This document shows, piece after piece, positions 1,047 through 25,188 of a stretch of DNA of 25,188 nt. The DNA is from a virus (Duplodnaviria > Heunggongvirae > Uroviricota > Caudoviricetes), in the IMG/VR virus record IMGVR_UViG_2547132281_000006, positions 1 through 25,188 of that record. One strand, written 5' to 3'. Below the pieces are notes generated by a model. That model ran no database searches. It was not told the origin of the DNA and saw only the letters and a list, made by a program, of their open reading frames with translations. A program made the translations under genes and the position numbers. Each line of letters starts with the position of its first letter. Positions within the stretch are counted from its first letter, which is position 1.

Positions 1047-1631
1047 TTACTCCCTGACAGGGTTCGTAGGCCACTCAATATCAGGTGCAGTTGATGTATC
1101 AACACGGTTCAGCAACACCCGATACTTTTTCCAGGCTTCCAGCAATGAGGTTTCTTCCTCCGTTGCAATTTCCAGATCTGCAGCATCCTGAAGCGGCGCA
1201 ATATGCTCACTGGCTACCTGCATCAGGTTGTTTTTTGTTTCTTCCGCCTCCCGGATCCGGAACAGTTTTTCTGCTTCTGCATCTTTCACCCAGGTTGTGC
1301 CGTTCCACTTCTGAAACTCCCCTTCCGGCGATAACCAGGTAACATTTTCCGGTAATAAGCCGAGTTCAGAAATAAATAACGCGTCGCCGGAAGCTACGTC
1401 ATAAACCGTTTTACCCCGATGATCTTCAACGAGATGCCACGATGCCTCATCACTGTTGAAAACAGCCACAAAGCCAGCCGGAATATCTGGCGGTGCAATA
1501 TCGGTACTGTTTGCTGGCAGACCTGTATGAGGCGGAATATATGCGTCACCTTCACCAATAAATTCATTAGTTCCGGCCAGCAGATTATAAATTTTTATGG
1601 TCCGTGCTTGTTCACTCATTCTGAATGCCAT
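1047..1631 (-). CDS. tfa: Tail fibre assembly protein (lambda Tfa family)
   Basis: 194-aa ORF with typical Tfa N-terminus ([36 protein letters not shown]) and conserved C-terminal block. Confidence 0.85.
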
Positions 1632-11727: not shown

Positions 11728-13584
11728 TTATGATGATGCCGGTGCATTTATCTCCAGCACCAGACTTTCTATCTCAACGCCATACGCTGCATTTTTGGTA
11801 ATATCCGTCAGCGTCAGCGCATTCAGCCCCAGTGTCAGACTGTCTTTTATGACCTGGAATGCCGGGCCAGCCACTCCATTCAGTTTCGGAGTAACCGTGG
11901 CACTGCCGGCGGTGAACACCAGCTCCAGCGTCTGCCAGTCGTTACTGTAATTCCCGAACTCGCCCAACTTTGTGTTTCCTGCTTTCTTGTGATGCATCAG
12001 ATTCAGTTTGCCGTCTGTGGTCTGGGTGAAGAACGACATCAGGAACGGGTTACCAGTCCCGGTCATCGCCACGACGTCAGGTAACGCTACATCGGTATAC
12101 AGATAAATTCCCAGACCGAACTGGTTGTTGGTCAGTGCGCCTGACAGTCGAAACTTACAGCTCAGTCTGCCACCCCGTGTCAGCAGGGAGACTGCGTCAT
12201 CCACCGGATGCATCAGGGACCAGGTTTTATTGCTCTGCTTGGTAACCTTAAACACACCATCTTCCAGCGCAACACTGCCGCCGGTGATGGTCCAGCCCTG
12301 CGCAGCAGCCTCTCCGGCTGTCGGCAGCAGGGAGACTGTACGAACGGATGTGTCACCATCAGACGGCCCCGATGGAGTGTCGCCGCCGGGCGAGGGTTTG
12401 ATTTCCGGTGCCTTACCACTAATGAAGGCTAAGGTGCGACCGGCTACGTTCAGAATAGCAGTTGCCATACGATCGGGAATAATGCCACGACGCGCCCATG
12501 AGCTGAAATGCGTCGGGCGATTTGATGATACCCAATTACCATTACTACGGGATTGCGCGCCGTAATAACCTGCATCAGCAATATCCGGGTCTTCTGCCGG
12601 TAAGTTGGTGGGCGTGTTGTTGCCGTTACCGTCGGTCATGAACGGCACAAAGAAAACGTTGTCGCTCTCCCTGTTTTTGTACGCGCCGTAGACGGAGTCA
12701 TACTGTGTGCCGTATGTGTTTTTCCAGTAATACGTCGTGTCGCCACAAATCCACGGTACAACTGCAGCACTGCCGCCATGGCACTGCGCGTTAAATCCGG
12801 AAAGGTCAGTACGGAACTGCTTCAGCATGGCCGTGAACAGGTCCGGTTGCTGTGCGTAGGTGGCAGCGCTCATGTCAAATTCGCCCTGCATCCAGCACAC
12901 CGCCAGCAACACATTTTTCGGGTTCCTCTGTAATGCCGCTTTGGTGCGTGCGATCAGGTCCTGATATAACGGTTTACCCACACCCCAGCGTGCCGAATCC
13001 TGGCTGGCCCCCGTGTCCGCACTGAATGTCCCCTCCGCGCCCTGGGTGAATGCCGAACCACCACGACAGCATGGTACCAGCAGGATCCCCGCGTTATTCG
13101 GGATATACGGAAGCAGTTTTTTGGCAATATGTAAGCCCTGGCCGACACAGCCGTACTGCCCTTTGCTCAGGTCTGCCTTCGGATGATTCAGTGCGCTCAT
13201 ATCCTGAACATCATGCAGGCAGTGGTCTGCCGGAATGATGTCGTTAAATGCGCATGCTTTACCACCGGGAGTCACTGTGTTGCGACGGGCCAGTTGCTTA
13301 ATGCGTGGGTGGGGCGCATCGTAAGAATCCGGAAGCGGAAGCCCTTCACCGTAAGCCATGGCATTGGATTGCCCGGCCAGTACGATGACGTAGTACCACT
13401 CCGGCTCAGTTGCACCACTGACGACCACATCACCTTCTGCTGCAATCGCCTGCATCAGGGTATAAGGGGTTATGGCCACCGGACTACCAAACGGCTGCCA
13501 GCCCTCTTTCAGTTTATGTGTCAGCTTTTCCGCAAGATCTGACGGCGACGCCGCCCTGACAACATCATAGTGTTTAAATGCCAT
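11728..13584 (-). CDS. Prophage sialate O-acetylesterase (NanS-p type: N-terminal DUF1737-like domain plus SASA/SGNH esterase)
   Basis: Start at ATG 13584 (MAFKHYDVV, GGTGGA SD); LAGQSNAMAYGEG esterase motif; ~620 aa; sits between the stx-equivalent locus and the holin as in Stx phages. Confidence 0.8.
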   Translation of the reverse strand: MAFKHYDVVRAASPSDLAEKLTHKLKEGWQPFGSPVAITPYTLMQAIAAEGDVVVSGATEPEWYYVIVLAGQSNAMAYGEGLPLPDSYDAPHPRIKQLARRNTVTPGGKACAFNDIIPADHCLHDVQDMSALNHPKADLSKGQYGCVGQGLHIAKKLLPYIPNNAGILLVPCCRGGSAFTQGAEGTFSADTGASQDSARWGVGKPLYQDLIARTKAALQRNPKNVLLAVCWMQGEFDMSAATYAQQPDLFTAMLKQFRTDLSGFNAQCHGGSAAVVPWICGDTTYYWKNTYGTQYDSVYGAYKNRESDNVFFVPFMTDGNGNNTPTNLPAEDPDIADAGYYGAQSRSNGNWVSSNRPTHFSSWARRGIIPDRMATAILNVAGRTLAFISGKAPEIKPSPGGDTPSGPSDGDTSVRTVSLLPTAGEAAAQGWTITGGSVALEDGVFKVTKQSNKTWSLMHPVDDAVSLLTRGGRLSCKFRLSGALTNNQFGLGIYLYTDVALPDVVAMTGTGNPFLMSFFTQTTDGKLNLMHHKKAGNTKLGEFGNYSNDWQTLELVFTAGSATVTPKLNGVAGPAFQVIKDSLTLGLNALTLTDITKNAAYGVEIESLVLEINAPASS

Positions 13585-13844
13585 GGTTCTTTCCACCATC
13601 TGAAAAATGATTCTTTAAAATACCTGACATGTAATACAGAAAAAACACAAAACCATACCTTAAATAAAAACCTCATCATCAAGCAGATATGCATGGATAA
13701 ACTACAAGACGAGATATAAACCACCCTGCATTTAAATAAACAATAAACAACATCAGAAAAATAATTCTGCTCTATGGTTTACAATCAAAAATATCATTTA
13801 TACTTTTCAGAACATCACCAGCAAGGCATAAACAAGGAAACTAA

Positions 13845-14180: not shown

Positions 14181-14214
14181 GGAGTTTACTCACATCTGAC
14201 AAAATCAATATAAA

Positions 14215-14236
14215 CAGCCCCTCCGGAGAGGGGCTG
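14215..14236 (-). terminator. GC-rich hairpin downstream of the tRNA cluster
   Basis: 9-bp stem CAGCCCCTC / GAGGGGCTG with 4-nt loop; on the minus strand followed by TTTATATTGATTTTG. Confidence 0.4.
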
Positions 14237-14471
14237 GAGAGTGGCGCTATGTGCCATTGCATGGTGCCGGGTGCCTCCCGGTGAATTCAGTACCAGCACC
14301 TGAATCCGCGATTATCCCATATACCTACTCGCTGATTGCCCCTCCGCACAGGGGGATTCACCATGCCAGTTTCTTTTAACAAACTCCCCGCAAACCAGAC
14401 AACAGTCAACCGCCTAAATTGTGAGACATTTAAAAAAAAGGCCCACAAAAGCGAGCCAGGGAAAATAAGTG

Positions 14472-14548
14472 TGGCGCGTTGTACTGGATTCGAACCAGTG
14501 ACCGATTGCTTAGAAGGCAATTGCTCTGTCCGGCTGAGCTAACAACGC
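14472..14548 (-). tRNA. tRNA-Arg (anticodon TCT)
   Basis: Reverse complement folds as a cloverleaf: acceptor GCGTTGT/ACAACGC, D-arm GCTC..GAGC, anticodon loop CTTCTAA, T-arm ACTGG-TTCGAAT-CCAGT, encoded CCA. Confidence 0.85.
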
Positions 14549-14561
14549 ATGATGCAGATAA

Positions 14562-14638
14562 TGGACCGCCATCGGGGACTTGAACCCCGCGCAACCAGCT
14601 TCGAAGGCTGGCGCTCTTTCCTGATGAGCTAATGGCGG
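14562..14638 (-). tRNA. tRNA-Arg (anticodon TCG)
   Basis: Acceptor CCGCCAT/ATGGCGG, D-arm GCTC..GAGC, anticodon stem CCAGC/GCTGG with loop CTTCGAA, T-arm CGGGG-TTCAAGT-CCCCG, encoded CCA. Confidence 0.8.
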
Positions 14639-14645
14639 TATGTGA

Positions 14646-14721
14646 TGGTGGCCCTTGCTGGATTTGAACCAGCGACCTGGCGATTATGAGTCGCTCGCTC
14701 TCACCACTGAGCTAAAGGGCC
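14646..14721 (-). tRNA. tRNA with CAT anticodon (Ile2/lysidine type, ileX/ileZ-like, or Met)
   Basis: Sequence GGCCCTTTAGCTCAGTGGTGAGAGCGAGCGACTCATAATCGCCAGGTCGCTGGTTCAAATCCAGCAAGGGCCACCA closely resembles recalled E. coli ileX. Confidence 0.8.
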
Positions 14722-14770: not shown

Positions 14771-15820
14771 TCAAACGATTAAATCCTGAACTTCCCTGAC
14801 TGTCTGCTCAAAACGTCCGGTCTCCAGTTCAACGCCAATCGCACGACGCCCGAGCGCCAGTGCAGCTTTTACCGTTGAACCTGAGCCCATAAAAAAATCT
14901 GCAACCAGGTCTCCCGGACGACTGCTTGCGCTGATTATCTGCTGCAGCATTTCTGCCGGTTTTTCGCACGGATGTTTCCCGGGATAGAACTGCACCGGTT
15001 TATGTGTCCACACATCCGTGTACGGCACCTGCGCCGTCACACCAAAATACCGCCGCAGATGCTTATATTCACTCTGCAGCTCCACATACTGCCGGTTCAG
15101 TGACGTATACGTATCCACCAGCTGGTGGTGGGGCTTTTCCAGTTCACCGCGCTGATGTTTCTCTTCTGCCACCCGGGCAAACAGCGACTGTAATTTCAGA
15201 TAATCGCTTTCGTTCGGTAGCTGCCACTGACTGGCACTGAACCAGTGCGACACCATGTTTTTCTTTCCTGTGGCATCTGCAATCTGTTTTGCCGTTATCC
15301 CCAGGGCCGCGCGCGCATCACGAAAGTAAGAAATCAGCGGGGCCATCACATGCTGTTTCAGTGCACTGCCCTTCGCCGCATACCCGGCATCTTTCGGACG
15401 ATACGGCCCCTGATAATGTTCCGCGAACAGAATGCGCTCTGTGGCGGGGAAATACGCCCGCAGGCTTTCCTTGTTGCATCCGTTCCAGCGTCCGGACGGC
15501 TTCGCCCAGATAATATGGTTCAGCACACTGAAGCGTTCACGCATCATGATTTCGATATCAGATGCCAGGCGATGACCACAGAACAGGTAAAGACTTCCGG
15601 CAGGTTTCAGCACCCGCCAGAACTGCGCCAGACACTGGTCCAGCCACTTCAGGTAATCATCGTCGCCCTTCCACTGGTTATCCCAGCCCTCAGGCTTCAC
15701 TTTAAAGTACGGCGGGTCCGTAACTATCAGGTCAACAGAATTTTCGGGTAACGACCGGATAAATTCCAGGCAGTCGGCGTTGATTAACTCACAACTGGAT
15801 ATTTTTACAGTATTAAGCAT
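14771..15820 (-). CDS. Orphan DNA methyltransferase, beta-class (N6-adenine or N4-cytosine)
   Basis: 349 aa; DPPY motif near the N-terminus (LIVTDPPYF) and FxGxG SAM motif near the C-terminus (DFFMGSGST); no adjacent restriction endonuclease candidate. Confidence 0.8.
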   Translation of the reverse strand: MLNTVKISSCELINADCLEFIRSLPENSVDLIVTDPPYFKVKPEGWDNQWKGDDDYLKWLDQCLAQFWRVLKPAGSLYLFCGHRLASDIEIMMRERFSVLNHIIWAKPSGRWNGCNKESLRAYFPATERILFAEHYQGPYRPKDAGYAAKGSALKQHVMAPLISYFRDARAALGITAKQIADATGKKNMVSHWFSASQWQLPNESDYLKLQSLFARVAEEKHQRGELEKPHHQLVDTYTSLNRQYVELQSEYKHLRRYFGVTAQVPYTDVWTHKPVQFYPGKHPCEKPAEMLQQIISASSRPGDLVADFFMGSGSTVKAALALGRRAIGVELETGRFEQTVREVQDLIV

Positions 15821-16394: not shown

Positions 16395-17216
16395 CTATCG
16401 CGTTACCCTCTTTAACTGCCGCTCCGCCCATGCCTCTTCAATGTCAAACCGAACCACCAACGTATCGTAAAAGCGTTTCACTGATTTTTTCCACGTATCA
16501 AGCGTGATAGCACTCGTCACTTTGCATATGGCATTAAATGCCTCCGTTGATGGCAGCCTTTCACAGCCACGACCACCACAACGCTGGCAGTCTCTGATAA
16601 CAGGCATACCACGTTTTACCGACTCTTCACGATGAATGGCGACACCACGCCCACGGCAATCCTTACAGGCGGTGGAAACCTCACCCTTTCCGCCACACTC
16701 CGGACAGGCAACTTTTACCACCTCCCTGACTTTTTTCCATTCTTCCCAGTAAGACGAATACACACCTTTCGTACACTTTGCCCATACCGGCGGCTTACCA
16801 TCCGGATACTGGACCTTGTTTGTAAAAACCTCGCTTTCAATAAATTTTTTTCCGTGACAGCAGGGGCACTGTTTTTTGCTCGCCGCGCTACGGGCATAAT
16901 CTTCAAACGCATACGAAGCCATAATACGCATCACTGCCGGTTTTATTTCTGCCGGGAGTTTTCTTAACGCCGCCACGCGATCACACCGACTGAGTGCATA
17001 TTCTGTCAGCAATTCTGTTGCCCGCTCTCTGTCATTCATACTAATGCCCATTTTACCAAGGAACGCAGAAAACCCCATCTCAGCCCGATTCTGTGTCATG
17101 CCCTGCGCGGCCATCACATCAGTGATACTCAGCGCATCTTTCGACGTTGAGGCCGATGCATCAGTCAGGCCGGGGGATTTTGGGGAGTAGTATTTCGGTA
17201 AATCTTCCAGTTTCAT
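16395..17216 (-). CDS. Q: Late-gene antiterminator Q (lambda-type, enlarged zinc-binding region)
   Basis: 273 aa; N-terminus (YYSPKSP...TDVMAAQGM), middle (ASYAFEDYARSAA) and C-terminus (RFYDTLVV...KRVTR) parallel recalled lambda Q; four CxxC motifs; start overlaps the rusA stop (ATGA). Confidence 0.8.
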   Translation of the reverse strand: MKLEDLPKYYSPKSPGLTDASASTSKDALSITDVMAAQGMTQNRAEMGFSAFLGKMGISMNDRERATELLTEYALSRCDRVAALRKLPAEIKPAVMRIMASYAFEDYARSAASKKQCPCCHGKKFIESEVFTNKVQYPDGKPPVWAKCTKGVYSSYWEEWKKVREVVKVACPECGGKGEVSTACKDCRGRGVAIHREESVKRGMPVIRDCQRCGGRGCERLPSTEAFNAICKVTSAITLDTWKKSVKRFYDTLVVRFDIEEAWAERQLKRVTR

Positions 17217-17587
17217 TTTTTGACCTGCCCTTCAAGCATTATGGGGTAAATCTTCACCCCCAGACGTCCACCAGATACTGGCTGACCACGAACGATATTG
17301 ATTTCATCAAACTGCTCATCGTCCATTAACACTCCCGCATGCGTCAGCGCATCCAGCGGTGCTTTCAGGATATTGTCCAGGTCGCGACGACGCTTATCCG
17401 GTGGCTCTGCAATCACCTTTATCGCCAGCCTTCCGGACAGGCTTAATTTCAGCCGCTGCTGGCGAACAATAAGCGCCACTGCCCGGCGATAACGCTCCCC
17501 GGCTTTTGATACAAAATATGTGCTGCCACGGCGTCGCCAGTAAGTGTTCACCGTCGGCGGGTAAGGTAAAACCAAATCTATGAGCAT
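17213..17587 (-). CDS. rusA: Holliday junction resolvase RusA
   Basis: 124 aa; LPYPPTVNTYW N-terminus and DKRRRDLDNILKAPLDALTHAGVLMDDEQF catalytic block typical of RusA. Confidence 0.85.
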   Translation of the reverse strand: MLIDLVLPYPPTVNTYWRRRGSTYFVSKAGERYRRAVALIVRQQRLKLSLSGRLAIKVIAEPPDKRRRDLDNILKAPLDALTHAGVLMDDEQFDEINIVRGQPVSGGRLGVKIYPIMLEGQVKK

Positions 17588-17831
17588 CAGTCACCTCTTT
17601 TAACAGAGCCTGCATTTTTTCAACAGCATCAGGGGTGTCTTTATCCAGCCAACGGAAAATTTTCTGGGTATTACGGGCCAGGGCTTCCGGATGGCTGTCG
17701 TCATACAGTTCCGGGAACGTCATTCCCAGCTCGAAATACGCTTTGGTAATTTTCGCAGCCGGTACTTTTTCGCCGTCCGGATGCGCCCAGGCATTCATTG
17801 CCATGCGGATGTGTTCATGCTTGATTTTCAT
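17394..17831 (-). CDS. Hypothetical protein downstream of the Cro-like gene (position analogous to ydaT of Rac); 3' end overlaps rusA
   Basis: 145-aa ORF; first ~100 aa look protein-like; last ~45 aa overlap rusA in another frame (possible lost stop or frameshift). Confidence 0.4.
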   Translation of the reverse strand: MKIKHEHIRMAMNAWAHPDGEKVPAAKITKAYFELGMTFPELYDDSHPEALARNTQKIFRWLDKDTPDAVEKMQALLKEVTDAHRFGFTLPADGEHLLATPWQHIFCIKSRGALSPGSGAYCSPAAAEIKPVRKAGDKGDCRATG

Positions 17832-18090
17832 GAATCACCCCCGCCTCTGGTTGTGTGTTAGCCTGATACTCGACAGGTAAGCCGTCGGTTGGGTTGGGAT
17901 AAGTACTGCCATCAATCTCGTGCGGAGTTACTATCCAGCCTGTTGCTTCGCACCAGCGTAAAATTTTTTTCCCCGTAAGTTTCGCCCGTCCGGTAATGAC
18001 ATGGCTTACCATCCCTTGGGTTACCCCAACAATTTCAGCAAAATGCTTCTGAGTTATACCGGAATGATGCAAATATTCTCCAAGATTCAT
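17815..18090 (-). CDS. Cro/YdaS/DicC-like HTH regulator, divergent from the repressor
   Basis: 91 aa; helix-turn-helix region GITQKHFAEIVGVTQGMVSHVITG; divergent from the repressor gene across an operator-containing intergenic region. Confidence 0.65.
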   Translation of the reverse strand: MNLGEYLHHSGITQKHFAEIVGVTQGMVSHVITGRAKLTGKKILRWCEATGWIVTPHEIDGSTYPNPTDGLPVEYQANTQPEAGVIHENQA

Positions 18091-18197: not shown

Positions 18198-18698
18198 ATG
18201 AAAAGAAAATCCCTGTCAGAGATCGACCTGCAAGCCGCCCAGAGACTGAAAGAAATCTGGACGGCGAAAAAAAATCAACTAGGGTTAACCCAAGAGCGTG
18301 CGGCAGAAATTCTGGGATTTTCGACACAGGGAGCTGTAAGCCATTATCTAAATGGTCAGACACCTTTAAATCTTGAGGCTGTTATCAAGTTCGCAGGGTT
18401 GCTGCAAGTTCCTCCCGAGTCAATCAGACCAGATATGGCCGAGTTGTTACAAATTGTAAGGATGTATCCCCAAGAATCTGGGGAGGACAATGTTGTCACT
18501 ATATCTGCAGATATGGAACAATCGGAAAACGAACTTCCGTTTAATATAGACCCCATGGAGCGGGATTTGCTCCAGACGTTCAGGGCTTTCCCCAAAGAAG
18601 ATAAAGAGAAAATGCTTAAGGAAATGAAGGAGAAAAAAGAATCAATTGAAGAAATCGTTGCGCGATGGCTAGCTGCGCAAAAGGGTCGTCGCGCCTAA
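18198..18698 (+). CDS. DicA-like prophage repressor (HTH, no LexA-type peptidase domain)
   Basis: 166 aa; HTH LGLTQERAAEILGFSTQGAVSHYLNG; C-terminal region resembles recalled DicA; no S24 peptidase motifs. Confidence 0.75.
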   Translation: MKRKSLSEIDLQAAQRLKEIWTAKKNQLGLTQERAAEILGFSTQGAVSHYLNGQTPLNLEAVIKFAGLLQVPPESIRPDMAELLQIVRMYPQESGEDNVVTISADMEQSENELPFNIDPMERDLLQTFRAFPKEDKEKMLKEMKEKKESIEEIVARWLAAQKGRRA

Positions 18699-18715: not shown

Positions 18716-18907
18716 ATGAGTACAGCCCTTTCCCCGATAATTTCTGAATTTGAAACAGTCGAACAAGAAAACAGCTATAACGAATGGTTGCGAACCAAAG
18801 TGGCAGCAAGCCTCTCAGATCCCCGTCCTGCAATTCCACATGACGAAGTAATGGCTGAAATGGAAAACCTTATTGCTCAATTAGCTGCAACGAACAGGAG
18901 TGAGTAA
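18716..18907 (+). CDS. Type II antitoxin (ParD-like) paired with the downstream ParE/RelE toxin
   Basis: 63 aa; GAGGAGG SD; stop overlaps the toxin start (TAATG); acidic C-terminus. Confidence 0.65.
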   Translation: MSTALSPIISEFETVEQENSYNEWLRTKVAASLSDPRPAIPHDEVMAEMENLIAQLAATNRSE

Positions 18908-19197
18908 TGCTGCCCATTTTATGGCTACCTTCTGCACGTGATGATTTACGTCAGATCGTAGCCTATATTGCTAAGGAAAACCCTCCCGCTGCACGTAGAC
19001 TAAAAATACGCATTGAAACATCAGTTTTGTCACTTACTGAACACCCTTATCTGTACCCACCGAGCGAAAGAGTTCCAAGTCTTCGTGAGATAGTGACTCA
19101 TCCTAACTACATAATACTTTACCGAGTAACAGCATCTAACATCGAGATCGTAAATGTAGTTCACTCACGAAGACAGTATCCAAACAAAACCTGTTAA
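18907..19197 (+). CDS. ParE/RelE-family type II toxin
   Basis: 96 aa; LPSARDDL...YIILYRV...IEIVNVVHSRRQY pattern typical of ParE/RelE toxins. Confidence 0.8.
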   Translation: MLPILWLPSARDDLRQIVAYIAKENPPAARRLKIRIETSVLSLTEHPYLYPPSERVPSLREIVTHPNYIILYRVTASNIEIVNVVHSRRQYPNKTC

Positions 19198-19285: not shown

Positions 19286-19466
19286 GTTCATTCATCAACC
19301 CACCCCGCCCCACAGAACGCCAGGCAATACTTCGAGTTACCCGGCAGTGGTCAGGGGTTAAGTAGCCAGCCCGAGGCGTAAGAACATGACGGCAGGGTTC
19401 AACTTTAATAACTATGCAGCAGGTTTTTGTTCCGCTACCCCGGCGTTAAGGGGAAATGAGGTCAGC

Positions 19467-19619
19467 ATGGATACTATCGAGCTTGGCAACAACGAATCTC
19501 TGGTATGCGGCGTGTTTCCCAACCAGGACGGCACGTTTACCGCGATGACATATACCAGAAGCAAAACGTTTAAAACTGAAGCTGGCGCGCGTCGCTGGTT
19601 AACCAGAAACACTGACTGA
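19467..19619 (+). CDS. YdfA-like small protein
   Basis: 50 aa from internal ATG 19467 (GAGG SD); MDTIELGNNESLVCGVFPNQDGTFTAMTYTRSKTFKTE resembles recalled Qin YdfA. Confidence 0.6.
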   Translation: MDTIELGNNESLVCGVFPNQDGTFTAMTYTRSKTFKTEAGARRWLTRNTD

Positions 19620-20602: not shown

Positions 20603-20655
20603 TTTCTGGTGACTTTTGGCGGTATCAGTTTTACTCCGTGACTGCTCTGCCGCCC
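20603..20655 (+). ncRNA. dicF: DicF small RNA (ftsZ-targeting sRNA of Qin-type prophages)
   Basis: TTTCTGGTGACTTTTGGCGGTATCAGTTTTACTCCGTGACTGCTCTGCCGCCC followed by TTTTT matches recalled K-12 DicF with ~2 substitutions; lies immediately upstream of the dicB-like gene. Confidence 0.8.
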
Positions 20656-20829: not shown

Positions 20830-21018
20830 ATGGAAACGTTATTACCAAACGTTAATACGTCTGAAGGTTGTTTTGATATTGGTGTTCTGCTCAGTAACCG
20901 GGAGTTTACGGAAGATGCCATTAAGATGAGAAAATATGAACCTTATCTTCTCAATGATAATTCCATACTTTCCAGAATTGCCCTTCTTGAACTTGGTATT
21001 ATCGGAGAACAGCAGTGA
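20830..21018 (+). CDS. dicB: DicB-like cell-division inhibitor
   Basis: 62 aa from ATG 20830 (GAGGA SD); METLLPNVNTSEGCFDIGV...FTEDAI matches the recalled K-12 DicB N-terminal half. Confidence 0.75.
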   Translation: METLLPNVNTSEGCFDIGVLLSNREFTEDAIKMRKYEPYLLNDNSILSRIALLELGIIGEQQ

Positions 21019-21203
21019 CTTCAGCATTTGCACTGGTGATGACCGTTTTTCTTATAACGGGTGAGCCACAAAATGTGATTACCGGAATTTATGACAGTAA
21101 GTCATCCTGCATTCAGGTAAGGGACGAACAAAAAATCCCCGGTGAATGCCTCCCGTTAAAAAAAGTATCGCTGAACCTGAATAACGAAATACCGGCTGGA
21201 TAA
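21015..21203 (+). CDS. Small membrane protein in the ydfD position
   Basis: 62 aa from a GTG start overlapping the dicB stop (alternative ATG at 21039); N-terminal hydrophobic segment SAFALVMTVFLITG. Confidence 0.45.
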   Translation: MTSAFALVMTVFLITGEPQNVITGIYDSKSSCIQVRDEQKIPGECLPLKKVSLNLNNEIPAG

Positions 21204-21298
21204 CCCGCCAGCCATATTAACGCCATACCAACGGATTAAAAATGCCAGCAATGGCAGGGATTCGTTCACCCTGAAATCTGTAATGAGGTTAAAACAAA

Positions 21299-23770
21299 AT
21301 GAGTAAAGTCTTTATTTGCGCCGCCATTCCGGACGAACAGGCAATAAAGGAAGAAGGTGCCGTCGCTGTAGCCACTGCCATTGAAGCCGGTGATGAACGT
21401 CGCGCCCGCGCAAAATTTCACTGGCAATTCCTGGAACATTATCCGGCTGCTCAGGACTGCGCTTATAAATTTCTTGTCTGCGAGGATAAACCCGGTATAC
21501 CCCGCCCTGCCCTCGATTCCTGGGATGCTGAATATATGCAGGAAAACCGCTGGGATGAGGAATCCGCTTCCTTTATTCCGGTCGAATCAGAATCCGATCC
21601 GATGAACGTCAATTTTGACAAGCTGTCCCTTGAAGTACAGAACGCGGTCCTGGTTAAGTTCGACACATGTGAAAACATCACCGTTGATATGGTTATTAGC
21701 GCACAGGAATTGTTGCAGGAAGACATGGCAACATTCGACGGACATATCGTTGAAGCGTTGATGAAAATGCCAGAAGTTAACGCCATGTATCCGGAGCTTA
21801 AGCTGCATGCCATCGGGTGGGTTAAGCATAAATGTAAGCCTGGTGCCAAATGGCCCGAAATTCAGGCAGAGATGCGCATCTGGAAAAAACGTCGCGAAGG
21901 TGAACGCAAGGAAACCGGAAAATACACGTCTGTTGTTGATCTCGCCCGCGCCAGAACCAATCAACAGCACAGTGAAAATTCAACAGGAAAAATCAGCCCG
22001 GTCATTGCTGCCATTCATCGCGAATACAAGCAGACATGGAAAACACTGGATGACGAACTGGCCTACGCTCTCTGGCCTGGTGATGTGGATGCCGGAAACA
22101 TTGACGGCAGCATCCATCGCTGGGCAAAAAATGAAGTTATCGACAACGACCGCGAAGACTGGAAGCGTATCTCGGCATCAATGCGCAAACAGCCTGATGC
22201 CCTTCGCTACGACCGCCAGACTATTTTTGGCCTTGTCCGTGAACGTCCGATCGACATTCACAAAGACCCTGTGGCACTGAACAAATACATTACTGAATAC
22301 CTGACTACAAAGGGCGTGTTTGAAGATGAAGGAAGAAATCAGAGCGCAACTGATACTCTCTCGTCGCCAGTACCAGAAACTGATGCAGTGGAAACGGCAA
22401 TTCCGGACAACGAAAAAACCGAATGCAAAGTGGAAGTCGAACCATCTGTAGAGCGTGAGGGGCCGTTCTACTTCCTCTTCACCGACAAGGATGGCGAAAA
22501 ATACGGTCGCGCAAACAAACTTTCTGGTCTGGATAAGGCGCTGGCTGCCGGGGCTACTGAAATCACGAAAGAAGAATATTTCGCCCGCAAAAACAGTACA
22601 TACTCAGGTTCACAACAAAATACTGGTGTATCTGACACGATCGCACAACCAGAGCCGGTAAAAGTTACCGCTGACGAAGTAAACAAAATTATGCAGGCAG
22701 CCAATATCAGCCAGCCTGACGCCAATAAGTTGCTTGCTGTATCACGTGGTGAATTTGTTGCAGGGATTAGCGACCCGAATGATCCGAAATGGGTGAAGGG
22801 GATTGAAACCCGCGATTCAGTGAATCAGAACCAGCAAGAAACGGAAAAGAACGGCCAGAAAGCGGAACAAAACAGCCCAAATGCGTTACAAAACGAGCCA
22901 GAAACGAAACAACCTGAACCAGTAGCGCAACAGGAACCGGAAAAAGTCTGCACCGCCTGCGGTCAGACCGGCGGCGGCAACTGCCCTGATTGTGGCGCGG
23001 TGATGGGCGACGCAACATACCAGGAAACATTCGATGAAGAGTATCAGGTTGAAGTTCAGGAAGATGATCCGGAGAAAATGGAAGGCGCTGAACATCCACA
23101 CAAGGAGAATGCTGGCAGCGCTCAGGACCACGCCAGCGATAGTGAAACTGGCGAGACGGCAGATCCCTTAATTACGGTGAACGGTCATCACGTTATCACA
23201 TCCACCAGCAGGACGTGTGACCATCTAATGATCGACCTTGAAACCATGGGAAAAAATCCTGATGCCCCGATCATCTCAATAGGTGCAATATTTTTCGATC
23301 CGCAAACCGGAGATATGGGACCGGAATTTAGTAAGACTATCGATCTGGAAACTGCTGGCGGAGTCATTGATCGGGACACCATTAAATGGTGGCTTAAGCA
23401 ATCACGCGAAGCGCAATCTGCCATTATGACCGATGAAATCCCGTTAGATGATGCACTGTTACAATTGCGGGAATTTATCGACGAAAACTCCGGTGAATTT
23501 TTTGTTCAGGTCTGGGGAAATGGAGCCAACTTCGACAACACGATTTTGCGCCGTTCATACGAACGGCAGGGGATCCCCTGCCCGTGGCGTTACTACAACG
23601 ATCGCGATGTACGCACAATCGTTGGGCTGGGGAAAGCCATAGACTTCGATGCCAGAACGGCTATTCCATTCGAAGGTGAGCGCCATAATGCACTTGATGA
23701 CGCCCGTTACCAGGCAAAATACGTTTCAGCTATCTGGCAAAAACTGATCCCGAGTCAGGCTGATTTTTAA
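21299..23770 (+). CDS. Large early protein with C-terminal DnaQ-like DEDDh 3'-5' exonuclease domain
   Basis: 823 aa; C-terminal motifs MIDLETMG (Exo I), VWGNGANFDNTIL (Exo II), HNALDDARYQAKY (Exo III); CxxC-N7-CxxC (CTACGQTGGGNCPDCG); acidic Q/E/P-rich linker. Confidence 0.75.
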   Translation: MSKVFICAAIPDEQAIKEEGAVAVATAIEAGDERRARAKFHWQFLEHYPAAQDCAYKFLVCEDKPGIPRPALDSWDAEYMQENRWDEESASFIPVESESDPMNVNFDKLSLEVQNAVLVKFDTCENITVDMVISAQELLQEDMATFDGHIVEALMKMPEVNAMYPELKLHAIGWVKHKCKPGAKWPEIQAEMRIWKKRREGERKETGKYTSVVDLARARTNQQHSENSTGKISPVIAAIHREYKQTWKTLDDELAYALWPGDVDAGNIDGSIHRWAKNEVIDNDREDWKRISASMRKQPDALRYDRQTIFGLVRERPIDIHKDPVALNKYITEYLTTKGVFEDEGRNQSATDTLSSPVPETDAVETAIPDNEKTECKVEVEPSVEREGPFYFLFTDKDGEKYGRANKLSGLDKALAAGATEITKEEYFARKNSTYSGSQQNTGVSDTIAQPEPVKVTADEVNKIMQAANISQPDANKLLAVSRGEFVAGISDPNDPKWVKGIETRDSVNQNQQETEKNGQKAEQNSPNALQNEPETKQPEPVAQQEPEKVCTACGQTGGGNCPDCGAVMGDATYQETFDEEYQVEVQEDDPEKMEGAEHPHKENAGSAQDHASDSETGETADPLITVNGHHVITSTSRTCDHLMIDLETMGKNPDAPIISIGAIFFDPQTGDMGPEFSKTIDLETAGGVIDRDTIKWWLKQSREAQSAIMTDEIPLDDALLQLREFIDENSGEFFVQVWGNGANFDNTILRRSYERQGIPCPWRYYNDRDVRTIVGLGKAIDFDARTAIPFEGERHNALDDARYQAKYVSAIWQKLIPSQADF

Positions 23771-23831
23771 TGTTCAACCGTCGCCAGTTGTCGTTGATAT
23801 TCTGCAACTGGCGCGTTCCGGAGTGATAGCC

Positions 23832-24101
23832 ATGAGCGAACAGTACCTGATAACGCTCGACGAGTGGAAACCAAAACGGTTCAGTCTCCCAATAACAAAC
23901 ACTACCCTGGTGAAATACGGAAAACTAGGATACATCGTTCCAAGACCACAAAAAATTCGTGGGCGTTGGCTGATAGATCGCCGAGCAGTATTTGTTGGGC
24001 CTGGTGAAACGGGAATTGCGCCGGAAATTCATACTGGCGATGATGATGCACTGAAGGAGATTTTAACTCATGTCACCGAGGCCACGAAAAAACAGCACTG
24101 A
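23832..24101 (+). CDS. xis: Excisionase (lambda Xis-like)
   Basis: 89 aa from ATG 23832 (GGAG SD); YLITLDEWKPKR...PRPQKIRGRWL resembles recalled lambda Xis; 3' end overlaps the int start by 32 nt. Confidence 0.7.
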   Translation: MSEQYLITLDEWKPKRFSLPITNTTLVKYGKLGYIVPRPQKIRGRWLIDRRAVFVGPGETGIAPEIHTGDDDALKEILTHVTEATKKQH

Positions 24102-25188
24102 CGTAGCCGGTCTTTACGAAAAGTTTGATCGCAGAACTGGCAGAGTTTACTACCAGTATAAAAATCCTGTGACTGGAAAATTTCACGGACTCGGAACAGA
24201 CAAAGGTAAGGCAGAAAAAATCGCTTCCACAGCCAATCAGCGAATAGCTGCAGCAGAAGCTGAATATTTCATGCGCAAAATTGATGAAAGTCCGTCAGCA
24301 ACAAAACGTCGGGGTATCAGATTAAAGGCATGGGTTGATCGATATCTGAAAATACAGGACACGCGACTGAAAAATGGAGATATTGCAGCTACAACTCACA
24401 AAGAAAAAACTCGAATGGCTGCATACCTGGTTTCCCGTCTGGGAAACCACCCATTGAAAGAACTGGAAGTAAGAGACTTTGCATTAATACTGGATGAGTG
24501 GCTGGATAAAGACATGGTCAGCACAGCGAGAGTAAATCGTGGATTATGGGTTGATATTTATAAAGAAGCACAGCATGCAGGGGAAGTTCCTCCTGGATGG
24601 AATCCTCCGGAGGCTACCCGTAAACCGATCCCTAAAGTAACCAGAGCCAGGCTCACCATGGAAGACTGGCAAAAAATTTACAATGCAACGCCTGAAAAAC
24701 ACTTTATCCGTAACGCAATGCTTCTTGCGATTGTTACTGGTCAGCGCCGTGATGACATTTGCCACATGCGTTTTTCAGATGTGTGGAACGAACACTTGCA
24801 TATCACCCAGGGAAAAACCGGAATGCGTCTGGCGTTACCGCTTACACTACGCTGTGATGCCATTGGGATAACGTTAAAAGAAGTTATTGATGGGTGCCGA
24901 GACAGAATATTAAGTCCATATCTAATCCATAGTCGGCACCAGAAACAACCGAAGCCGATGAGTAAAGACAACCTGAGCGACTACTTTGCCAAAGCACGGG
25001 ATCTGGCTGGGATAATTCCACCAGCAGGAAAAACTCCGCCAACATTTCATGAACAACGCTCTCTATCAGAACGGCTGTACCGTGCACAGGGTATCGATAC
25101 AAAAACATTACTAGGACATAAAGTCCAGGCAACCACCGATCGCTATAACGATACTCGAGGTCAGGAATGGGTTAAGCTGGTTATTTGA
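24070..25188 (+). CDS. int: Tyrosine integrase (lambda Int family)
   Basis: 372 aa; arm-binding N-terminus (GRVYYQYKNPVTGKFHGLG), catalytic-core blocks (LLAIVTGQRRDDIC, HEQRSLSERLY, LLGHK...TTDRY) co-linear with recalled lambda Int. Confidence 0.9.
   Translation: MSPRPRKNSTDVAGLYEKFDRRTGRVYYQYKNPVTGKFHGLGTDKGKAEKIASTANQRIAAAEAEYFMRKIDESPSATKRRGIRLKAWVDRYLKIQDTRLKNGDIAATTHKEKTRMAAYLVSRLGNHPLKELEVRDFALILDEWLDKDMVSTARVNRGLWVDIYKEAQHAGEVPPGWNPPEATRKPIPKVTRARLTMEDWQKIYNATPEKHFIRNAMLLAIVTGQRRDDICHMRFSDVWNEHLHITQGKTGMRLALPLTLRCDAIGITLKEVIDGCRDRILSPYLIHSRHQKQPKPMSKDNLSDYFAKARDLAGIIPPAGKTPPTFHEQRSLSERLYRAQGIDTKTLLGHKVQATTDRYNDTRGQEWVKLVI

What the first reader, a model, noticed from the sequence alone, without database searches (positions are those of the whole stretch)
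21299..23770. 823-aa early-operon protein combining a zinc ribbon, an acidic linker and a C-terminal DEDDh exonuclease
Seen: the C-terminal ~200 aa carry the three DnaQ-like exonuclease motifs (MIDLETMG, WGNGANFDN, HNALDDARY), preceded by CTACGQTGGGNCPDCG and a Q/E/P-rich acidic low-complexity stretch; the N-terminal ~450 aa are unrecognised. It sits in the early-left operon just upstream of xis/int, where lambdoid phages carry recombination or anti-host functions, but no partner annealase (RecT/Bet-like) is present. Inference: could be a nuclease for recombination or anti-defence; assignment uncertain.
Basis: partly seen in the sequence, partly recalled or inferred. Interest (0 to 1): 0.5.

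Follow-up and report, generated by a model that had tools for sequence, protein, structure and literature searches.

The report
RecE-like scaffold with 3'-5' exonuclease
This very common E. coli prophage early gene, the intact form of the K-12 pseudogene ydfE, matches the non-catalytic part of the RecE recombination nuclease over its first ~626 residues. Its nuclease domain is instead a T4-DexA/Rv2179c-type 3'-5' exonuclease, it has no annealing partner, and although catalogued in databases it has not been tested for function.

Summary
ORF 21299-23770 (+) encodes 823 aa with an intact DEDDh exonuclease domain (Pfam Rv2179c-like, E 7.6e-67; D646, E648, D746, H796, D801), a Cys4 zinc knuckle (C551/554/562/565) and an acidic disordered linker.

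New here: the "unrecognised" N-terminus is homologous, domain by domain, to the non-catalytic region of RecE (exonuclease VIII).
- aa 1-210 are remote homologues (hhalign 96.9%).
- aa 245-473 are moderate homologues.
- aa 474-626 are about 70% identical, zinc knuckle included.

Homology stops where the RecE PD-(D/E)XK nuclease begins. The protein is therefore a RecE scaffold with a swapped nuclease of opposite polarity.

In IMG/VR loci, 37 of 37 PD-(D/E)XK versions have recT immediately downstream, against 0 of 91 DEDDh versions. It is the last gene of a Qin-type dicBF operon, and K-12 ydfE is its IS2-truncated remnant. A copy covering at least 80% of the gene is present in 3532 of 5426 complete E. 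coli genomes.

Most likely it is a Mg-dependent 3'-5' exonuclease acting on DNA ends during lytic growth, without an annealase. The biological role is inferred, not shown. It is not exonuclease VIII, although some phage records label it so. Interest is moderate.

The parts
21299..23770 (+). Complete gene, 823 aa plus stop; intact counterpart of the E. coli K-12 pseudogene ydfE
   Evidence: ORF list. PGAP annotates the same 2472-nt frame as 'exonuclease' in strain 266917_2 at 99.9% identity. The exact protein is in NCBI as 'exonuclease'. K-12 ydfE (b1577) covers nt 1-767 at 94.4% identity and is then cut by IS2E.
21285..21288 (+). GAGG Shine-Dalgarno-like motif, 10 nt upstream of the ATG
   Evidence: Read directly from the sequence.
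21299..21928 (+). aa 1-210: folded alpha/beta plus helical N-terminal domain (Pfam YdfE_N); remote homologue of the RecE N-terminal domain PF06630
   Evidence: AlphaFold2 pLDDT is mostly above 90. hhalign of YdfE_N against the RecE N-terminus gives probability 96.9%, E 1.5e-10, over 187 columns. dN/dS is 0.11. No informative structural neighbour was found.
22031..22318 (+). aa 245-340: helical middle domain (Pfam YdfE_C), the module shared by all scaffold variants including RecE
   Evidence: pLDDT above 90. It aligns to RecE 278-336 and to NCBIfam PRK09709 positions 271-603 together with the linker. It is present in the representatives that carry DEDDh, PD-(D/E)XK or other C-termini.
22460..22603 (+). 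aa 388-435: small beta-hairpin/helix domain (GPFYF...GRANK...EITKEEY)
   Evidence: pLDDT 93-97. dN/dS is 0.10. The motif is conserved in distant scaffold proteins P0125 and P0131.
22718..23176 (+). aa 474-626: segment that BLASTP aligns closely to RecE (72% identical to Rac-SA53 RecE 471-616; close match to K-12 RecE about 455-592). It contains the zinc knuckle and the acidic disordered linker, and ends at the domain-swap junction
   Evidence: BLASTP. AlphaFold2 predicts it as disordered. Composition and net charge were computed.
22949..22993 (+). aa 551-565: CxxC-x7-CxxC zinc knuckle (C551, C554, C562, C565), followed by the near-invariant GAVMGDATYQETF
   Evidence: The cysteines are kept in 114 of 120 close homologues with variable spacer residues. 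dN/dS is 0.10, against 0.41 for the linker. The same motif occurs in K-12 RecE. Metal binding itself is inferred.
23222..23737 (+). aa 642-813: DEDDh 3'-5' exonuclease domain of the Rv2179c/T4 DexA family; catalytic D646, E648, D746, H796, D801
   Evidence: Pfam PF16473 at E 7.6e-67. phmmer to T4 DexA 8KEL at E 3.4e-6. Foldseek hits to RNase T, DexA and DnaQ domains. Motif conservation. Residue numbers.
20604..20655 (+). DicF sRNA gene, upstream in the same operon (context)
   Evidence: Rfam RF00039, 75.8 bits, E 2.5e-15.
20830..21203 (+). dicB (20830-21018) and the ydfD-like DUF1482 gene (21015-21203), immediately upstream (context)
   Evidence: Pfam DicB at E 1.8e-37 and DUF1482 at E 2.8e-15. 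The order matches K-12 Qin.
23823..25188 (+). Excisionase (23823-24101) and integrase (24070-25188), immediately downstream with no recT between (context)
   Evidence: Pfam Exc. PGAP annotation of the near-identical locus. tblastn finds no RecT or Erf.

Best explanation
Shown: architecture.
- The gene encodes a chimeric, RecE-derived early protein.
- Residues 1-626 are the non-catalytic RecE-type scaffold. It comprises three folded domains and a ~140-residue acidic disordered linker that carries a Cys4 knuckle.
- Residues 642-813 are a DEDDh exonuclease of the Rv2179c/T4-DexA family with all five catalytic residues intact.
- This domain sits where RecE carries its PD-(D/E)XK 5'-3' nuclease.

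Shown: context.
- It is the last gene of a Qin-type dicBF early-left operon, directly before xis and int.
- It never has recT next to it, whereas every PD-(D/E)XK version sampled does.
- All folded parts are under purifying selection.

Inferred: mechanism.
- On prophage derepression or infection the operon is transcribed.
- The protein then acts as a Mg2+-dependent 3'-5' exonuclease on 3' ends of DNA, trimming single-stranded 3' tails or recessing duplex ends.
- The RecE-type scaffold and zinc knuckle give it the same still-unknown targeting or assembly function that they give RecE.
- Because it removes the 3' strand and has no annealase, it cannot run RecET-type single-strand annealing by itself.
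- Its likely role is accessory end-processing of phage or host DNA during lytic growth, for example 3'-flap or tail removal, or degradation of linear DNA.
- The enzyme class is close to certain. DNA as the substrate and the biological role are the uncertain steps.
For: Enzyme class.
- Pfam PF16473 at E 7.6e-67 over the full profile.
- DEDDh residues conserved.
- The nearest solved relative by sequence is the DNA exonuclease T4 DexA.

RecE scaffold.
- K-12 RecE about 455-592 matches aa 474-626 closely, and Rac-SA53 RecE 471-616 is 72% identical to it. The match ends at the start of the RecE nuclease domain.
- The NCBIfam exoVIII model matches aa 246-626.
- hhalign gives 96.9% for the N-terminal domains.

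Cassette behaviour.
- In 134 IMG/VR loci, 0 of 91 DEDDh versions (0 of 18 clusters at 95% identity) have recT.
- 37 of 37 PD-(D/E)XK versions (7 of 7 clusters) have it directly downstream (example).
- No RecT or Erf is found in the window or in the whole 45-kb genome of phage HannyBb, which carries a 92.7% identical gene.

Link to DNA metabolism.
- A stand-alone homologue, 56% identical, lies between erf/ssb and abc2 in the recombination module of Salmonella phage g341c.

Operon position.
- DicF, dicB and ydfD lie upstream.
- The operon is repressed by DicA in K-12 (bioRxiv 10.1101/2023.04.14.536235).

Selection.
- dN/dS is 0.10-0.23 in the folded domains and the zinc knuckle.
Against: - No biochemical or genetic data exist for this protein. 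The literature searches run here found none.
- The family's founding member Rv2179c is named an exoribonuclease by Pfam, so RNA cannot be excluded as the substrate.
- The function of the RecE N-terminal region is itself unknown (PMC11611040), so the idea that the scaffold targets the nuclease is an argument by analogy.
- Fold searches of the N-terminal model gave nothing informative.
- A 3'-5' exonuclease produces 5' overhangs, which are not substrates for known phage recombination pathways.
- A published study reports that a stand-alone E. coli DexA homologue protects against T4. That points to defence rather than phage DNA metabolism.
Confidence: 0.5

Rival explanations
1. Prophage-encoded defence nuclease. 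Like the stand-alone E. coli DexA homologue EcD ('HREX'), the DEDDh domain would selectively degrade incoming DNA of phages with modified cytosine (5hmC) and so protect the lysogen.
For: - PMC12153337 reports that plasmid-borne EcD degrades T4 DNA and protects E. coli from T4, and that bacterial DexA homologues are most frequent in Escherichia.
- The domain here is in the same family as DexA.
- An aromatic residue (Y766) aligns with DexA W152, and acidic residues D782 and D784 lie near the D169 position (counted by hand).
- The gene is present in 65% of complete E. coli genomes.
Against: - The gene is the last gene of the early-left dicBF-type operon. In K-12 that operon is repressed by DicA, and long transcripts reaching ydfDE were not detected. 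A lysogen-protecting gene would be expected to be expressed in the lysogen.
- The position equivalent to W152 is Tyr, not Trp.
- EcD is stand-alone, whereas this protein carries a 626-residue RecE scaffold.
- PADLOC gives only a generic Cas-associated DEDDh match at E 2.5e-5.
- The EcD sequence could not be retrieved for comparison.
Confidence: 0.15
2. Anti-host or anti-defence nuclease. Early in lytic growth it would degrade host nucleic acids that threaten the phage, such as 3' tails used by host recombination or RecBCD, retron or reverse-transcriptase-derived DNA, or linear oligonucleotide signals. Alternatively it would scavenge host DNA for nucleotides, as T4 DexA does.
For: - It has an early-operon position next to host-directed genes (DicB, DicF, YdfD).
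- T4 DexA has a documented role in host-DNA scavenging (abstract of PMC12153337).
- The protein is very acidic, with net charge -56.
- In g341c the stand-alone homologue lies next to the anti-RecBCD gene abc2.
Against: - No known anti-defence family matches.
- Nothing ties the protein to a specific defence system.
- Temperate lambdoid phages are not known to degrade the host chromosome.
- The shared RecE scaffold argues for a function related to DNA ends or recombination rather than bulk degradation.
Confidence: 0.15
3. RNA exonuclease. As the Pfam name suggests for Rv2179c, the domain would trim RNA 3' ends, for instance processing the polycistronic dicBF transcript or DicF, or host RNAs.
For: - The Pfam family is named for the exoribonuclease Rv2179c.
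- PGAP names many copies '3'-5' exoribonuclease domain-containing protein'.
- The gene is co-transcribed with an sRNA that needs processing.
- Among DEDDh folds the model also resembles RNase T.
Against: - The scaffold is shared with proteins whose other C-terminal modules are DNA enzymes: the RecE nuclease with RecT, and possibly a Rad52-like annealase.
- Stand-alone phage homologues sit in DNA recombination modules.
- The only phage member with a solved structure, DexA, is a DNase.
- RNase T itself also cuts DNA; the solved structures matched here are complexes with DNA.
Confidence: 0.1
4. It is exonuclease VIII (RecE), as several phage records annotate it: a 5'-3' dsDNA exonuclease working with a RecT-type annealase.
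For: - Annotations reading 'exodeoxyribonuclease VIII' appear in phage records.
- The NCBIfam exoVIII model hits aa 246-626 at E 6.8e-84.
- There is strong identity to the RecE linker.
Against: - The NCBIfam score of 282 is far below the 1269 cutoff.
- No PD-(D/E)XK domain is present; a DEDDh domain takes its place.
- No recT is found.
- The similarity is confined to the part of RecE that is dispensable for RecET recombination (PMC11611040).
Confidence: 0.02
5. Decaying prophage remnant without function.
For: - Truncated copies are common. K-12 ydfE is cut by IS2, strain JCC-EE 7 has an IS1-cut copy, and there are many partial records.
- The prophage in the window seems to lack replication genes.
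Against: - The full-length frame is kept in thousands of genomes and in isolated phages (mEp460, Tritos, HannyBb, Evi).
- dN/dS is 0.10-0.23 in the folded domains.
- The catalytic residues and cysteines are conserved.
Confidence: 0.03

Closest known systems
RecE / exonuclease VIII of the Rac prophage (E. coli K-12 b1350)
   Same: - The non-catalytic architecture is homologous throughout: the N-terminal domain (hhalign 96.9%), the middle domain, the zinc knuckle CxxC-x7-CxxC followed by GAVMGDATYQETFDEE, and the acidic linker (about 70% identity).
- It occupies the same place in the early-left operon, shortly before xis and int.
   Different: - The C-terminal nuclease is a DEDDh 3'-5' domain instead of the PD-(D/E)XK 5'-3' domain.
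- There is no recT downstream: 0 of 91 loci against 37 of 37.
- It fails the NCBIfam equivalog cutoff, 282 against 1269 bits.
T4 DexA (exonuclease A; PDB 8KEL/8KEN) and the E. coli homologue EcD ('HREX', PMC12153337)
   Same: - Same Rv2179c-like DEDDh family. phmmer gives E 3.4e-6, tblastn gives 28% identity over 65% of the domain, and Foldseek matches it.
- The catalytic residues align.
   Different: - DexA and EcD are stand-alone proteins of roughly 200 aa. Here the domain is the C-terminus of an 823-aa RecE-type scaffold.
- DexA W152 aligns with Tyr766.
- DexA carries extra loops.
- Oligomeric state and 5hmC preference are untested.
Mycobacterium tuberculosis Rv2179c (founder of Pfam PF16473)
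   Same: Full-length match to the family profile, positions 2-177 of 177, at E 7.6e-67.
   Different: - Rv2179c is a stand-alone bacterial protein described as an exoribonuclease.
- The protein here is phage-borne, fused to a scaffold, and lies in a DNA-recombination context.
Stand-alone Rv2179c-like exonucleases of temperate phages (Salmonella phage g341c gp30; Escherichia phage PhiR40_1)
   Same: - 56-60% identity to the C-terminal domain.
- They also lie in the early-left region. In g341c the gene is inside the erf-ssb-abc2 recombination module.
   Different: - They have no RecE-type scaffold, zinc knuckle or linker.
- In g341c an annealase (Erf) is encoded next to the gene.
E. coli K-12 ydfE (b1577, Qin prophage pseudogene)
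   Same: - Orthologous. It covers nt 1-767 of the gene at 94.4% identity, with the same upstream neighbours dicF-dicB-ydfD.
- It gives its name to the Pfam families YdfE_N and YdfE_C found on this protein.
   Different: The K-12 copy is cut by IS2E after about 255 codons and lacks the linker and the exonuclease. The window carries the intact gene.

Membership tests
DEDDh (DnaQ-like) exonuclease superfamily, Rv2179c-like family (PF16473) | Profile match above the curated threshold over the whole domain | tested here: met
   224.9 bits against a cutoff of 27, E 7.6e-67, profile positions 2-177 of 177.
DEDDh (DnaQ-like) exonuclease superfamily, Rv2179c-like family (PF16473) | Exo I D-x-E, Exo II D and Exo III H-x4-D catalytic residues | tested here: met
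   D646, E648, D746, H796 and D801. They are conserved in the homologues, while the x4 position varies.
DEDDh (DnaQ-like) exonuclease superfamily, Rv2179c-like family (PF16473) | RNase H-like fold resembling solved DEDDh enzymes | tested here: met
   Foldseek of the AlphaFold2 model hits RNase T, DexA and DnaQ domains at E about 2e-5 and probability 1.00. Model quality in this domain is only moderate, pLDDT 60-85.
DEDDh (DnaQ-like) exonuclease superfamily, Rv2179c-like family (PF16473) | Metal-dependent 3'-5' exonuclease activity | not testable with these tools
   Requires an enzyme assay.
RecE / exonuclease VIII | C-terminal PD-(D/E)XK 5'-3' nuclease domain | tested here: not met
   There is no PD-(D/E)XK match. 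Rac-SA53 RecE has PF12684 and this protein does not. tblastn with two RecE C-terminal types finds nothing in the window.
RecE / exonuclease VIII | NCBIfam equivalog PRK09709 above cutoff | tested here: not met
   282.5 bits against a cutoff of 1269. Only model positions 271-603 are matched.
RecE / exonuclease VIII | Adjacent recT annealase gene (two-component recombinase) | tested here: not met
   xis follows directly. 0 of 91 DEDDh-type loci have recT, against 37 of 37 PD-(D/E)XK-type loci.
RecE / exonuclease VIII | RecE-type non-catalytic N-terminal region, zinc knuckle and linker | tested here: met
   BLASTP shows about 70% identity for aa 474-626. hhalign gives 96.9% for the N-terminal domain.
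T4 DexA / 'HREX' 5hmC-recognising exonucleases (PMC12153337) | Homology to DexA with catalytic residues conserved | tested here: met
   phmmer E 3.4e-6 to 8KEL; alignment A1.
T4 DexA / 'HREX' 5hmC-recognising exonucleases (PMC12153337) | Trp equivalent to DexA W152 and Asp equivalent to D169, the residues proposed for 5hmC recognition | tested here: inconclusive
   W152 aligns with Tyr766, whereas the stand-alone phage homologues have Trp. D782 and D784 lie near the D169 position, but the alignment there has gaps.
T4 DexA / 'HREX' 5hmC-recognising exonucleases (PMC12153337) | Stand-alone enzyme of about 200 aa whose dimer/tetramer state sets substrate choice | tested here: not met
   The domain is fused to a 626-residue scaffold. 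Oligomeric state is not testable here.
T4 DexA / 'HREX' 5hmC-recognising exonucleases (PMC12153337) | Preferential cleavage of 5hmC DNA and protection against T4 | not testable with these tools
   Requires enzyme and plaque assays.
YdfE family (Pfam YdfE_N PF27430 + YdfE_C PF27432) | Both domains present | tested here: met
   The precomputed Pfam hits on the 90%-identity cluster representative and other close homologues list PF27430 and PF27432. These models are not in the local Pfam copy, so no score for the window protein itself was obtained.

The most novel reading that the evidence does not exclude
The RecE/YdfE N-terminal scaffold would be a general delivery platform of enterobacterial temperate phages. 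It accepts interchangeable DNA-end effector cassettes:
- a PD-(D/E)XK 5'-3' nuclease with RecT;
- a DEDDh 3'-5' nuclease alone;
- a possible Rad52-like annealase;
- a fourth, unknown module.

On this reading the DEDDh version found here carries out a distinct, annealase-independent reaction at DNA ends. One example would be destroying the 3' tails needed by host recombination or by a defence system. It would not be a degenerate RecE. This would also give the first handle on what the long-unexplained RecE N-terminal region does.
Probability: 0.25. Interest if true: 0.6.

Novelty: new variant of a known kind. Interest (0 to 1): 0.4.

Why it matters
- **Abundance.** A copy covering at least 80% of the gene is in about two thirds of complete E. 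coli genomes and in isolated temperate phages, yet it has no tested function. Records label it inconsistently as 'exonuclease', '3'-5' exoribonuclease' or, wrongly, 'exodeoxyribonuclease VIII'.
- **The RecE N-terminal region.** It is a natural domain swap on the RecE scaffold: the same ~600 N-terminal residues, a nuclease of opposite polarity, and no annealase. The RecE N-terminal region matters for linear-linear recombineering but is unexplained (PMC11611040). Whatever it binds or organises should be common to both proteins, so the swap gives a way to study it.
- **The HREX claim.** The published claim about 'bacterial' DexA homologues needs reframing. In E. coli most of these homologues are early genes of prophages.
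- **Limits.** The enzyme class is ordinary and the sequence family is already catalogued, so the finding is useful rather than surprising.

Tried and rejected
2. **Pfam and PDB sequence searches of the N-terminus.** The local Pfam copy finds nothing before aa 642. The PDB contains only DexA for the C-terminus.
3. **PADLOC.** Only a generic Cas-associated DEDDh model matched, at E 2.5e-5. The protein is not a catalogued defence component.
4. **Literature.** Searches for Rv2179c, DexA, ydfE, the RecE N-terminus and phage DEDDh defence found no study of this protein. One search was wasted because 'RecE' matched 'receptor'.
5. **EcD comparison.** The sequence of EcD (HAK9828821.1) could not be obtained, so identity to the HREX protein is unknown.
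6. **Stand-alone copy.** A stand-alone copy of the domain at 98% identity (hit H39) turned out to be an IS1-truncated pseudogene.
7. **The search for related loci.** The broad alignment A3 failed for lack of a conserved stretch. It was replaced by two narrower alignments.
8. **First RecT census.** The first census missed K-12-type RecE and RecT, because they are only 27-29% identical to the Rac-SA53 types. It was redone with both types.
9. **Third C-terminal module.** A profile of the 'c131' module against PDB sequences gave no hit. The Rad52-like reading rests only on a sub-threshold Pfam hit (E 0.037) and on a motif resemblance recalled from memory.


Full report
**1. Observation**

The window carries an uninterrupted ORF at 21299-23770 on the + strand. 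It has an ATG start, 823 codons and a TAA stop. A GAGG lies 10 nt upstream.

MIDLETMG is at aa 644, WGNGANFDN at 739, HNALDDARY at 796 and CTACGQTGGGNCPDCG at 551.

Pfam places aa 642-813 in PF16473, the Rv2179c-like 3'-5' exoribonuclease domain. The match has E 7.6e-67 and covers 2-177 of 177 profile positions.

The catalytic set is D646, E648, D746, H796 and D801. In the homologues collected, D-x-E, the Exo II Asp and H-x4-D are kept, while the residue before the last Asp varies.

The linker is as described:
- aa 499-547 are rich in Q, E, N and P.
- aa 571-640 are rich in E and D, with net charge -15.
- The whole protein has net charge -56.
- AlphaFold2 predicts aa 499-640 as disordered.

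**2. What the N-terminus is**

They are recognisable.

Three comparisons tie them to RecE:
- The NCBIfam model for exodeoxyribonuclease VIII (RecE) matches aa 246-626 at E 6.8e-84. The score is far below the family cutoff, 282 against 1269 bits, and only model positions 271-603 are matched.
- BLASTP against RecE of phage Rac-SA53 and of E. coli K-12 shows that aa 474-626 are about 70% identical to RecE (K-12 residues ~455-592). The match includes the zinc knuckle (CNACGQTGGDNCPDC in K-12 RecE), the following GAVMGDATYQETFDEE and the acidic tail. aa 262-336 align more weakly to RecE 278-351.
- The similarity stops at aa 626 / RecE 592. That is where the RecE nuclease domain begins. According to the review PMC11611040, this domain can replace the full-length protein genetically, while the N-terminal part is 'of unknown function' apart from enhancing linear-linear recombination.

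The first 210 residues do not hit the RecE N-terminal Pfam family PF06630 directly. A profile-profile comparison does show homology. An alignment of this domain against an alignment of RecE-type N-termini gives probability 96.9% and E 1.5e-10 over 187 columns.

Precomputed Pfam hits on homologues name the two domains YdfE_N (PF27430) and YdfE_C (PF27432).

**3. A modular family**

An exhaustive HMMER search with aa 1-472 found 193 cluster representatives. Mapping domains onto those of at least 450 aa shows a combinatorial architecture with four parts:
- an N-terminal domain of the YdfE_N type or the RecE type;
- the common middle domain;
- a variable linker;
- one of at least four C-terminal modules.

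The four C-terminal modules are:
- the DEDDh domain;
- a RecE-type PD-(D/E)XK nuclease;
- a module with no Pfam match that carries a KKSLTDAIKKAL-x-LGFSAD motif, with only a sub-threshold Rad52_Rad22 hit (E 0.037);
- a fourth, unknown module.

Mosaic joints are visible in E. coli itself. In strain MRSN346355 the C-terminal 45% of the gene is 96% identical to the window copy, while the 5' part does not match at megablast level.

**4. The annealase travels with the nuclease cassette, not with the scaffold**

I fetched 160 IMG/VR loci using two alignments of the middle domain. I then classified each gene by its C-terminal module and looked for recT.

Results for the 134 loci with a complete gene and at least 700 bp downstream:

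| C-terminal module | Loci | Clusters at 95% identity | recT |
|---|---|---|---|
| DEDDh | 91 | 18 | none anywhere within the fetched flanks |
| PD-(D/E)XK (two types, 29% identical to each other) | 37 | 7 | directly downstream in all 37 |

Further points:
- One example pairs a YdfE_N scaffold with a PD-(D/E)XK nuclease. It is followed by an overlapping recT homologue (39% identity, E 1e-61).
- Neither the window nor the complete 45-kb genome of phage HannyBb has a RecT or Erf homologue. HannyBb carries a 92.7% identical gene, and none of its annotated products is an annealase.
- Other annealase families were not searched by sequence.

**5. Genomic and population context**

Upstream on the same strand lie:
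- a DicA/cI-like HTH repressor gene;
- a PaaA2/ParE toxin-antitoxin pair;
- a ydfA-like DUF1391 gene;
- the DicF sRNA (Rfam, 75.8 bits);
- dicB;
- a ydfD-like DUF1482 gene.

Downstream lie xis and int.

This is the dicBF operon layout of the K-12 Qin prophage. In K-12 the corresponding gene is the pseudogene ydfE (b1577), which covers nt 1-767 of the window gene at 94.4% identity before being cut by IS2E.

In K-12 this operon is repressed by DicA, and transcripts reaching ydfDE were not detected under laboratory conditions (bioRxiv 10.1101/2023.04.14.536235).

How widespread the gene is:
- A copy covering at least 80% of the gene is present in 3532 of 5426 complete E. coli genomes, with a median of two matching places per genome that has any.
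- It occurs in isolated phages such as mEp460, Tritos, HannyBb and Evi.
- The exact protein is in NCBI as 'exonuclease', within a 90%-identity cluster of 23,183 members.

Selection was measured across 53 distinct alleles:

| Region | dN/dS |
|---|---|
| aa 1-210 | 0.11 |
| aa 388-435 | 0.10 |
| Zinc segment (aa 548-570) | 0.10 |
| DEDDh domain | 0.23 |
| Linker as a whole (aa 499-640) | 0.41 |

The middle domain could not be assessed, because the loci were selected on it.

The four cysteines are kept in 114 of 120 close homologues while the residues between them vary. The zinc knuckle is therefore a selected feature. Metal binding itself is inferred.

**6. The exonuclease domain in phages**

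tblastn finds the domain in 1197 phage records, mostly as a stand-alone gene of about 180-200 aa.

The only solved relative found by sequence is T4 DexA (8KEL/8KEN), at E 3.4e-6. Foldseek of the full model returns RNase T, DexA and DnaQ domains.

In Salmonella phage g341c a 56%-identical stand-alone copy lies inside the recombination module, between erf/ssb and abc2. In Escherichia phage PhiR40_1 a 60%-identical copy follows ea22.

**7. Mechanism**

Shown:
- an intact DEDDh domain of the DexA/Rv2179c family;
- attachment through a disordered acidic linker and a Cys4 knuckle to a RecE-type scaffold;
- an early-left operon position;
- systematic absence of recT;
- purifying selection.

Inferred:
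- The protein is a Mg-dependent 3'-5' exonuclease acting on DNA 3' ends after derepression or infection.
- The scaffold gives it the same unknown targeting or assembly function that it gives RecE.
- Because the polarity is opposite to RecE and there is no annealase, it cannot by itself perform RecET-type single-strand annealing. An accessory end-processing or DNA-degrading role is the best guess.

I put about 0.9 on the enzyme class, about 0.65 on DNA as the physiological substrate, and about 0.35-0.4 on the accessory end-processing or DNA-degrading role in phage DNA metabolism.

**8. Rivals**

- **Defence ('HREX').** Kang et al. (PMC12153337) report that a stand-alone E. coli DexA homologue, EcD, degrades T4 DNA and protects cells. 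The paper never mentions prophages, although in E. coli this domain is mostly found in the prophage gene family described here. Three points argue against a defence role here: the repressed early operon, Tyr instead of Trp at the DexA W152 position, and the large scaffold. I could not obtain the EcD sequence.
- **Anti-host or anti-defence nuclease, or nucleotide scavenging.** This fits the early position and the neighbouring host-directed genes, but has no direct support. PADLOC gives only a generic DEDDh match.
- **RNA exonuclease.** The family name suggests it. It is not excluded, but the DNA-enzyme company that the scaffold keeps argues against it.
- **True exonuclease VIII.** Refuted at sequence level.
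- **Non-functional remnant.** Contradicted by conservation.

**9. Comparison and novelty**

The protein works like a DexA/Rv2179c-type exonuclease and is built like RecE.
- It is a member of the DEDDh Rv2179c-like family and of the YdfE_N/YdfE_C family.
- It is not a member of the RecE/exoVIII family, because the defining nuclease domain, the equivalog score and the recT partner are all missing.

The sequence family is already catalogued (PHROG 2082 'exonuclease'; Pfam; PGAP names). I found no functional study, and no description of the domain-swap relationship to RecE, in the searchable literature. I rate it a new variant of a known kind, of moderate interest.

**10. Limits**

- All functional statements are inferences from sequence, context and one published study of a related protein.
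- The RecT census is drawn from E. coli-like prophages in IMG/VR and is phylogenetically non-independent, so the dereplicated counts should be used.
- The AlphaFold2 model of the exonuclease domain is only of moderate confidence.
- The Rad52-like reading of the third C-terminal module is weak.

Noticed in passing
Related proteins P0131, P0184, P0128 and others (locus L011:5001-7226 for P0131): The same YdfE/RecE scaffold carries a third C-terminal module with no Pfam match, found in about 19 of the 50%-identity representatives. It has a conserved KKSLTDAIKKAL-x-LGFSADV-x-LGLYD motif. The only support for a family is a sub-threshold Rad52_Rad22 hit (E 0.037). It may be a fused Rad52-like annealase. 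In L011 it is followed by a Sipho_Gp157 gene and then an integrase gene.
   Followed up: partly
Related proteins P0125, P0213, P0265 and others: A fourth C-terminal module of about 180 aa (phrog_26058, unknown function) sits on the same scaffold. It has no Pfam match.
   Followed up: partly
window 16395-18090 (- strand): The gene order is a Cro-like gene (17815-18090), a truncated cII-like ORF (17394-17831) that overlaps RusA (17213-17587), then a Q-like antiterminator (16395-17216). No O/P-type replication genes lie between them. The prophage has probably lost its replication module and is likely defective.
   Followed up: partly
window 18716-19197 (+): A PaaA2 antitoxin / ParE toxin pair (Pfam E 1e-21 and 6.6e-18) is inserted between the DicA/cI-like repressor gene (18198-18698) and the ydfA-like DUF1391 gene (19386-19619).
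   Followed up: no
window 20604-20655 (+): A DicF sRNA gene (Rfam RF00039, 75.8 bits) lies upstream of dicB. This confirms a Qin-type dicBF operon.
   Followed up: yes
window 14206-14721 (-) and 1090-1288 (-): There are three tRNA genes (14475-14548, 14565-14638, 14649-14721), the sRNA STnc100 (14206-14395) and an IS009 RNA (1090-1288). A DNA methyltransferase gene (14771-15820) and a 623-aa phrog_143 protein of unknown function (11728-13599) lie nearby.
   Followed up: no
E. coli K-12 MG1655 1650078-1650998 (locus L007:3079-3999): The K-12 pseudogene ydfE is the N-terminal remnant of this exonuclease gene, about 255 codons long and cut by IS2E. A second kind of remnant, cut by IS1 and keeping only the DEDDh part, occurs in strain JCC-EE 7 (L173:4004-4552).
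   Followed up: yes
Paper PMC12153337: The 'HREX' study treats E. coli DexA homologues as bacterial defence genes and never uses the word prophage. In complete E. coli genomes this domain is mostly found as the C-terminus of this prophage early gene.
   Followed up: partly
K-12 RecE/RecT (L172) against Rac-SA53 RecE/RecT (L003): The two 'RecE' nuclease domains are only 29% identical, and the two 'RecT' proteins only 27% identical. Their linkers and zinc knuckles are more than 70% identical to each other and to the window protein. The nuclease-plus-annealase pair appears to be exchanged as one cassette.
   Followed up: partly
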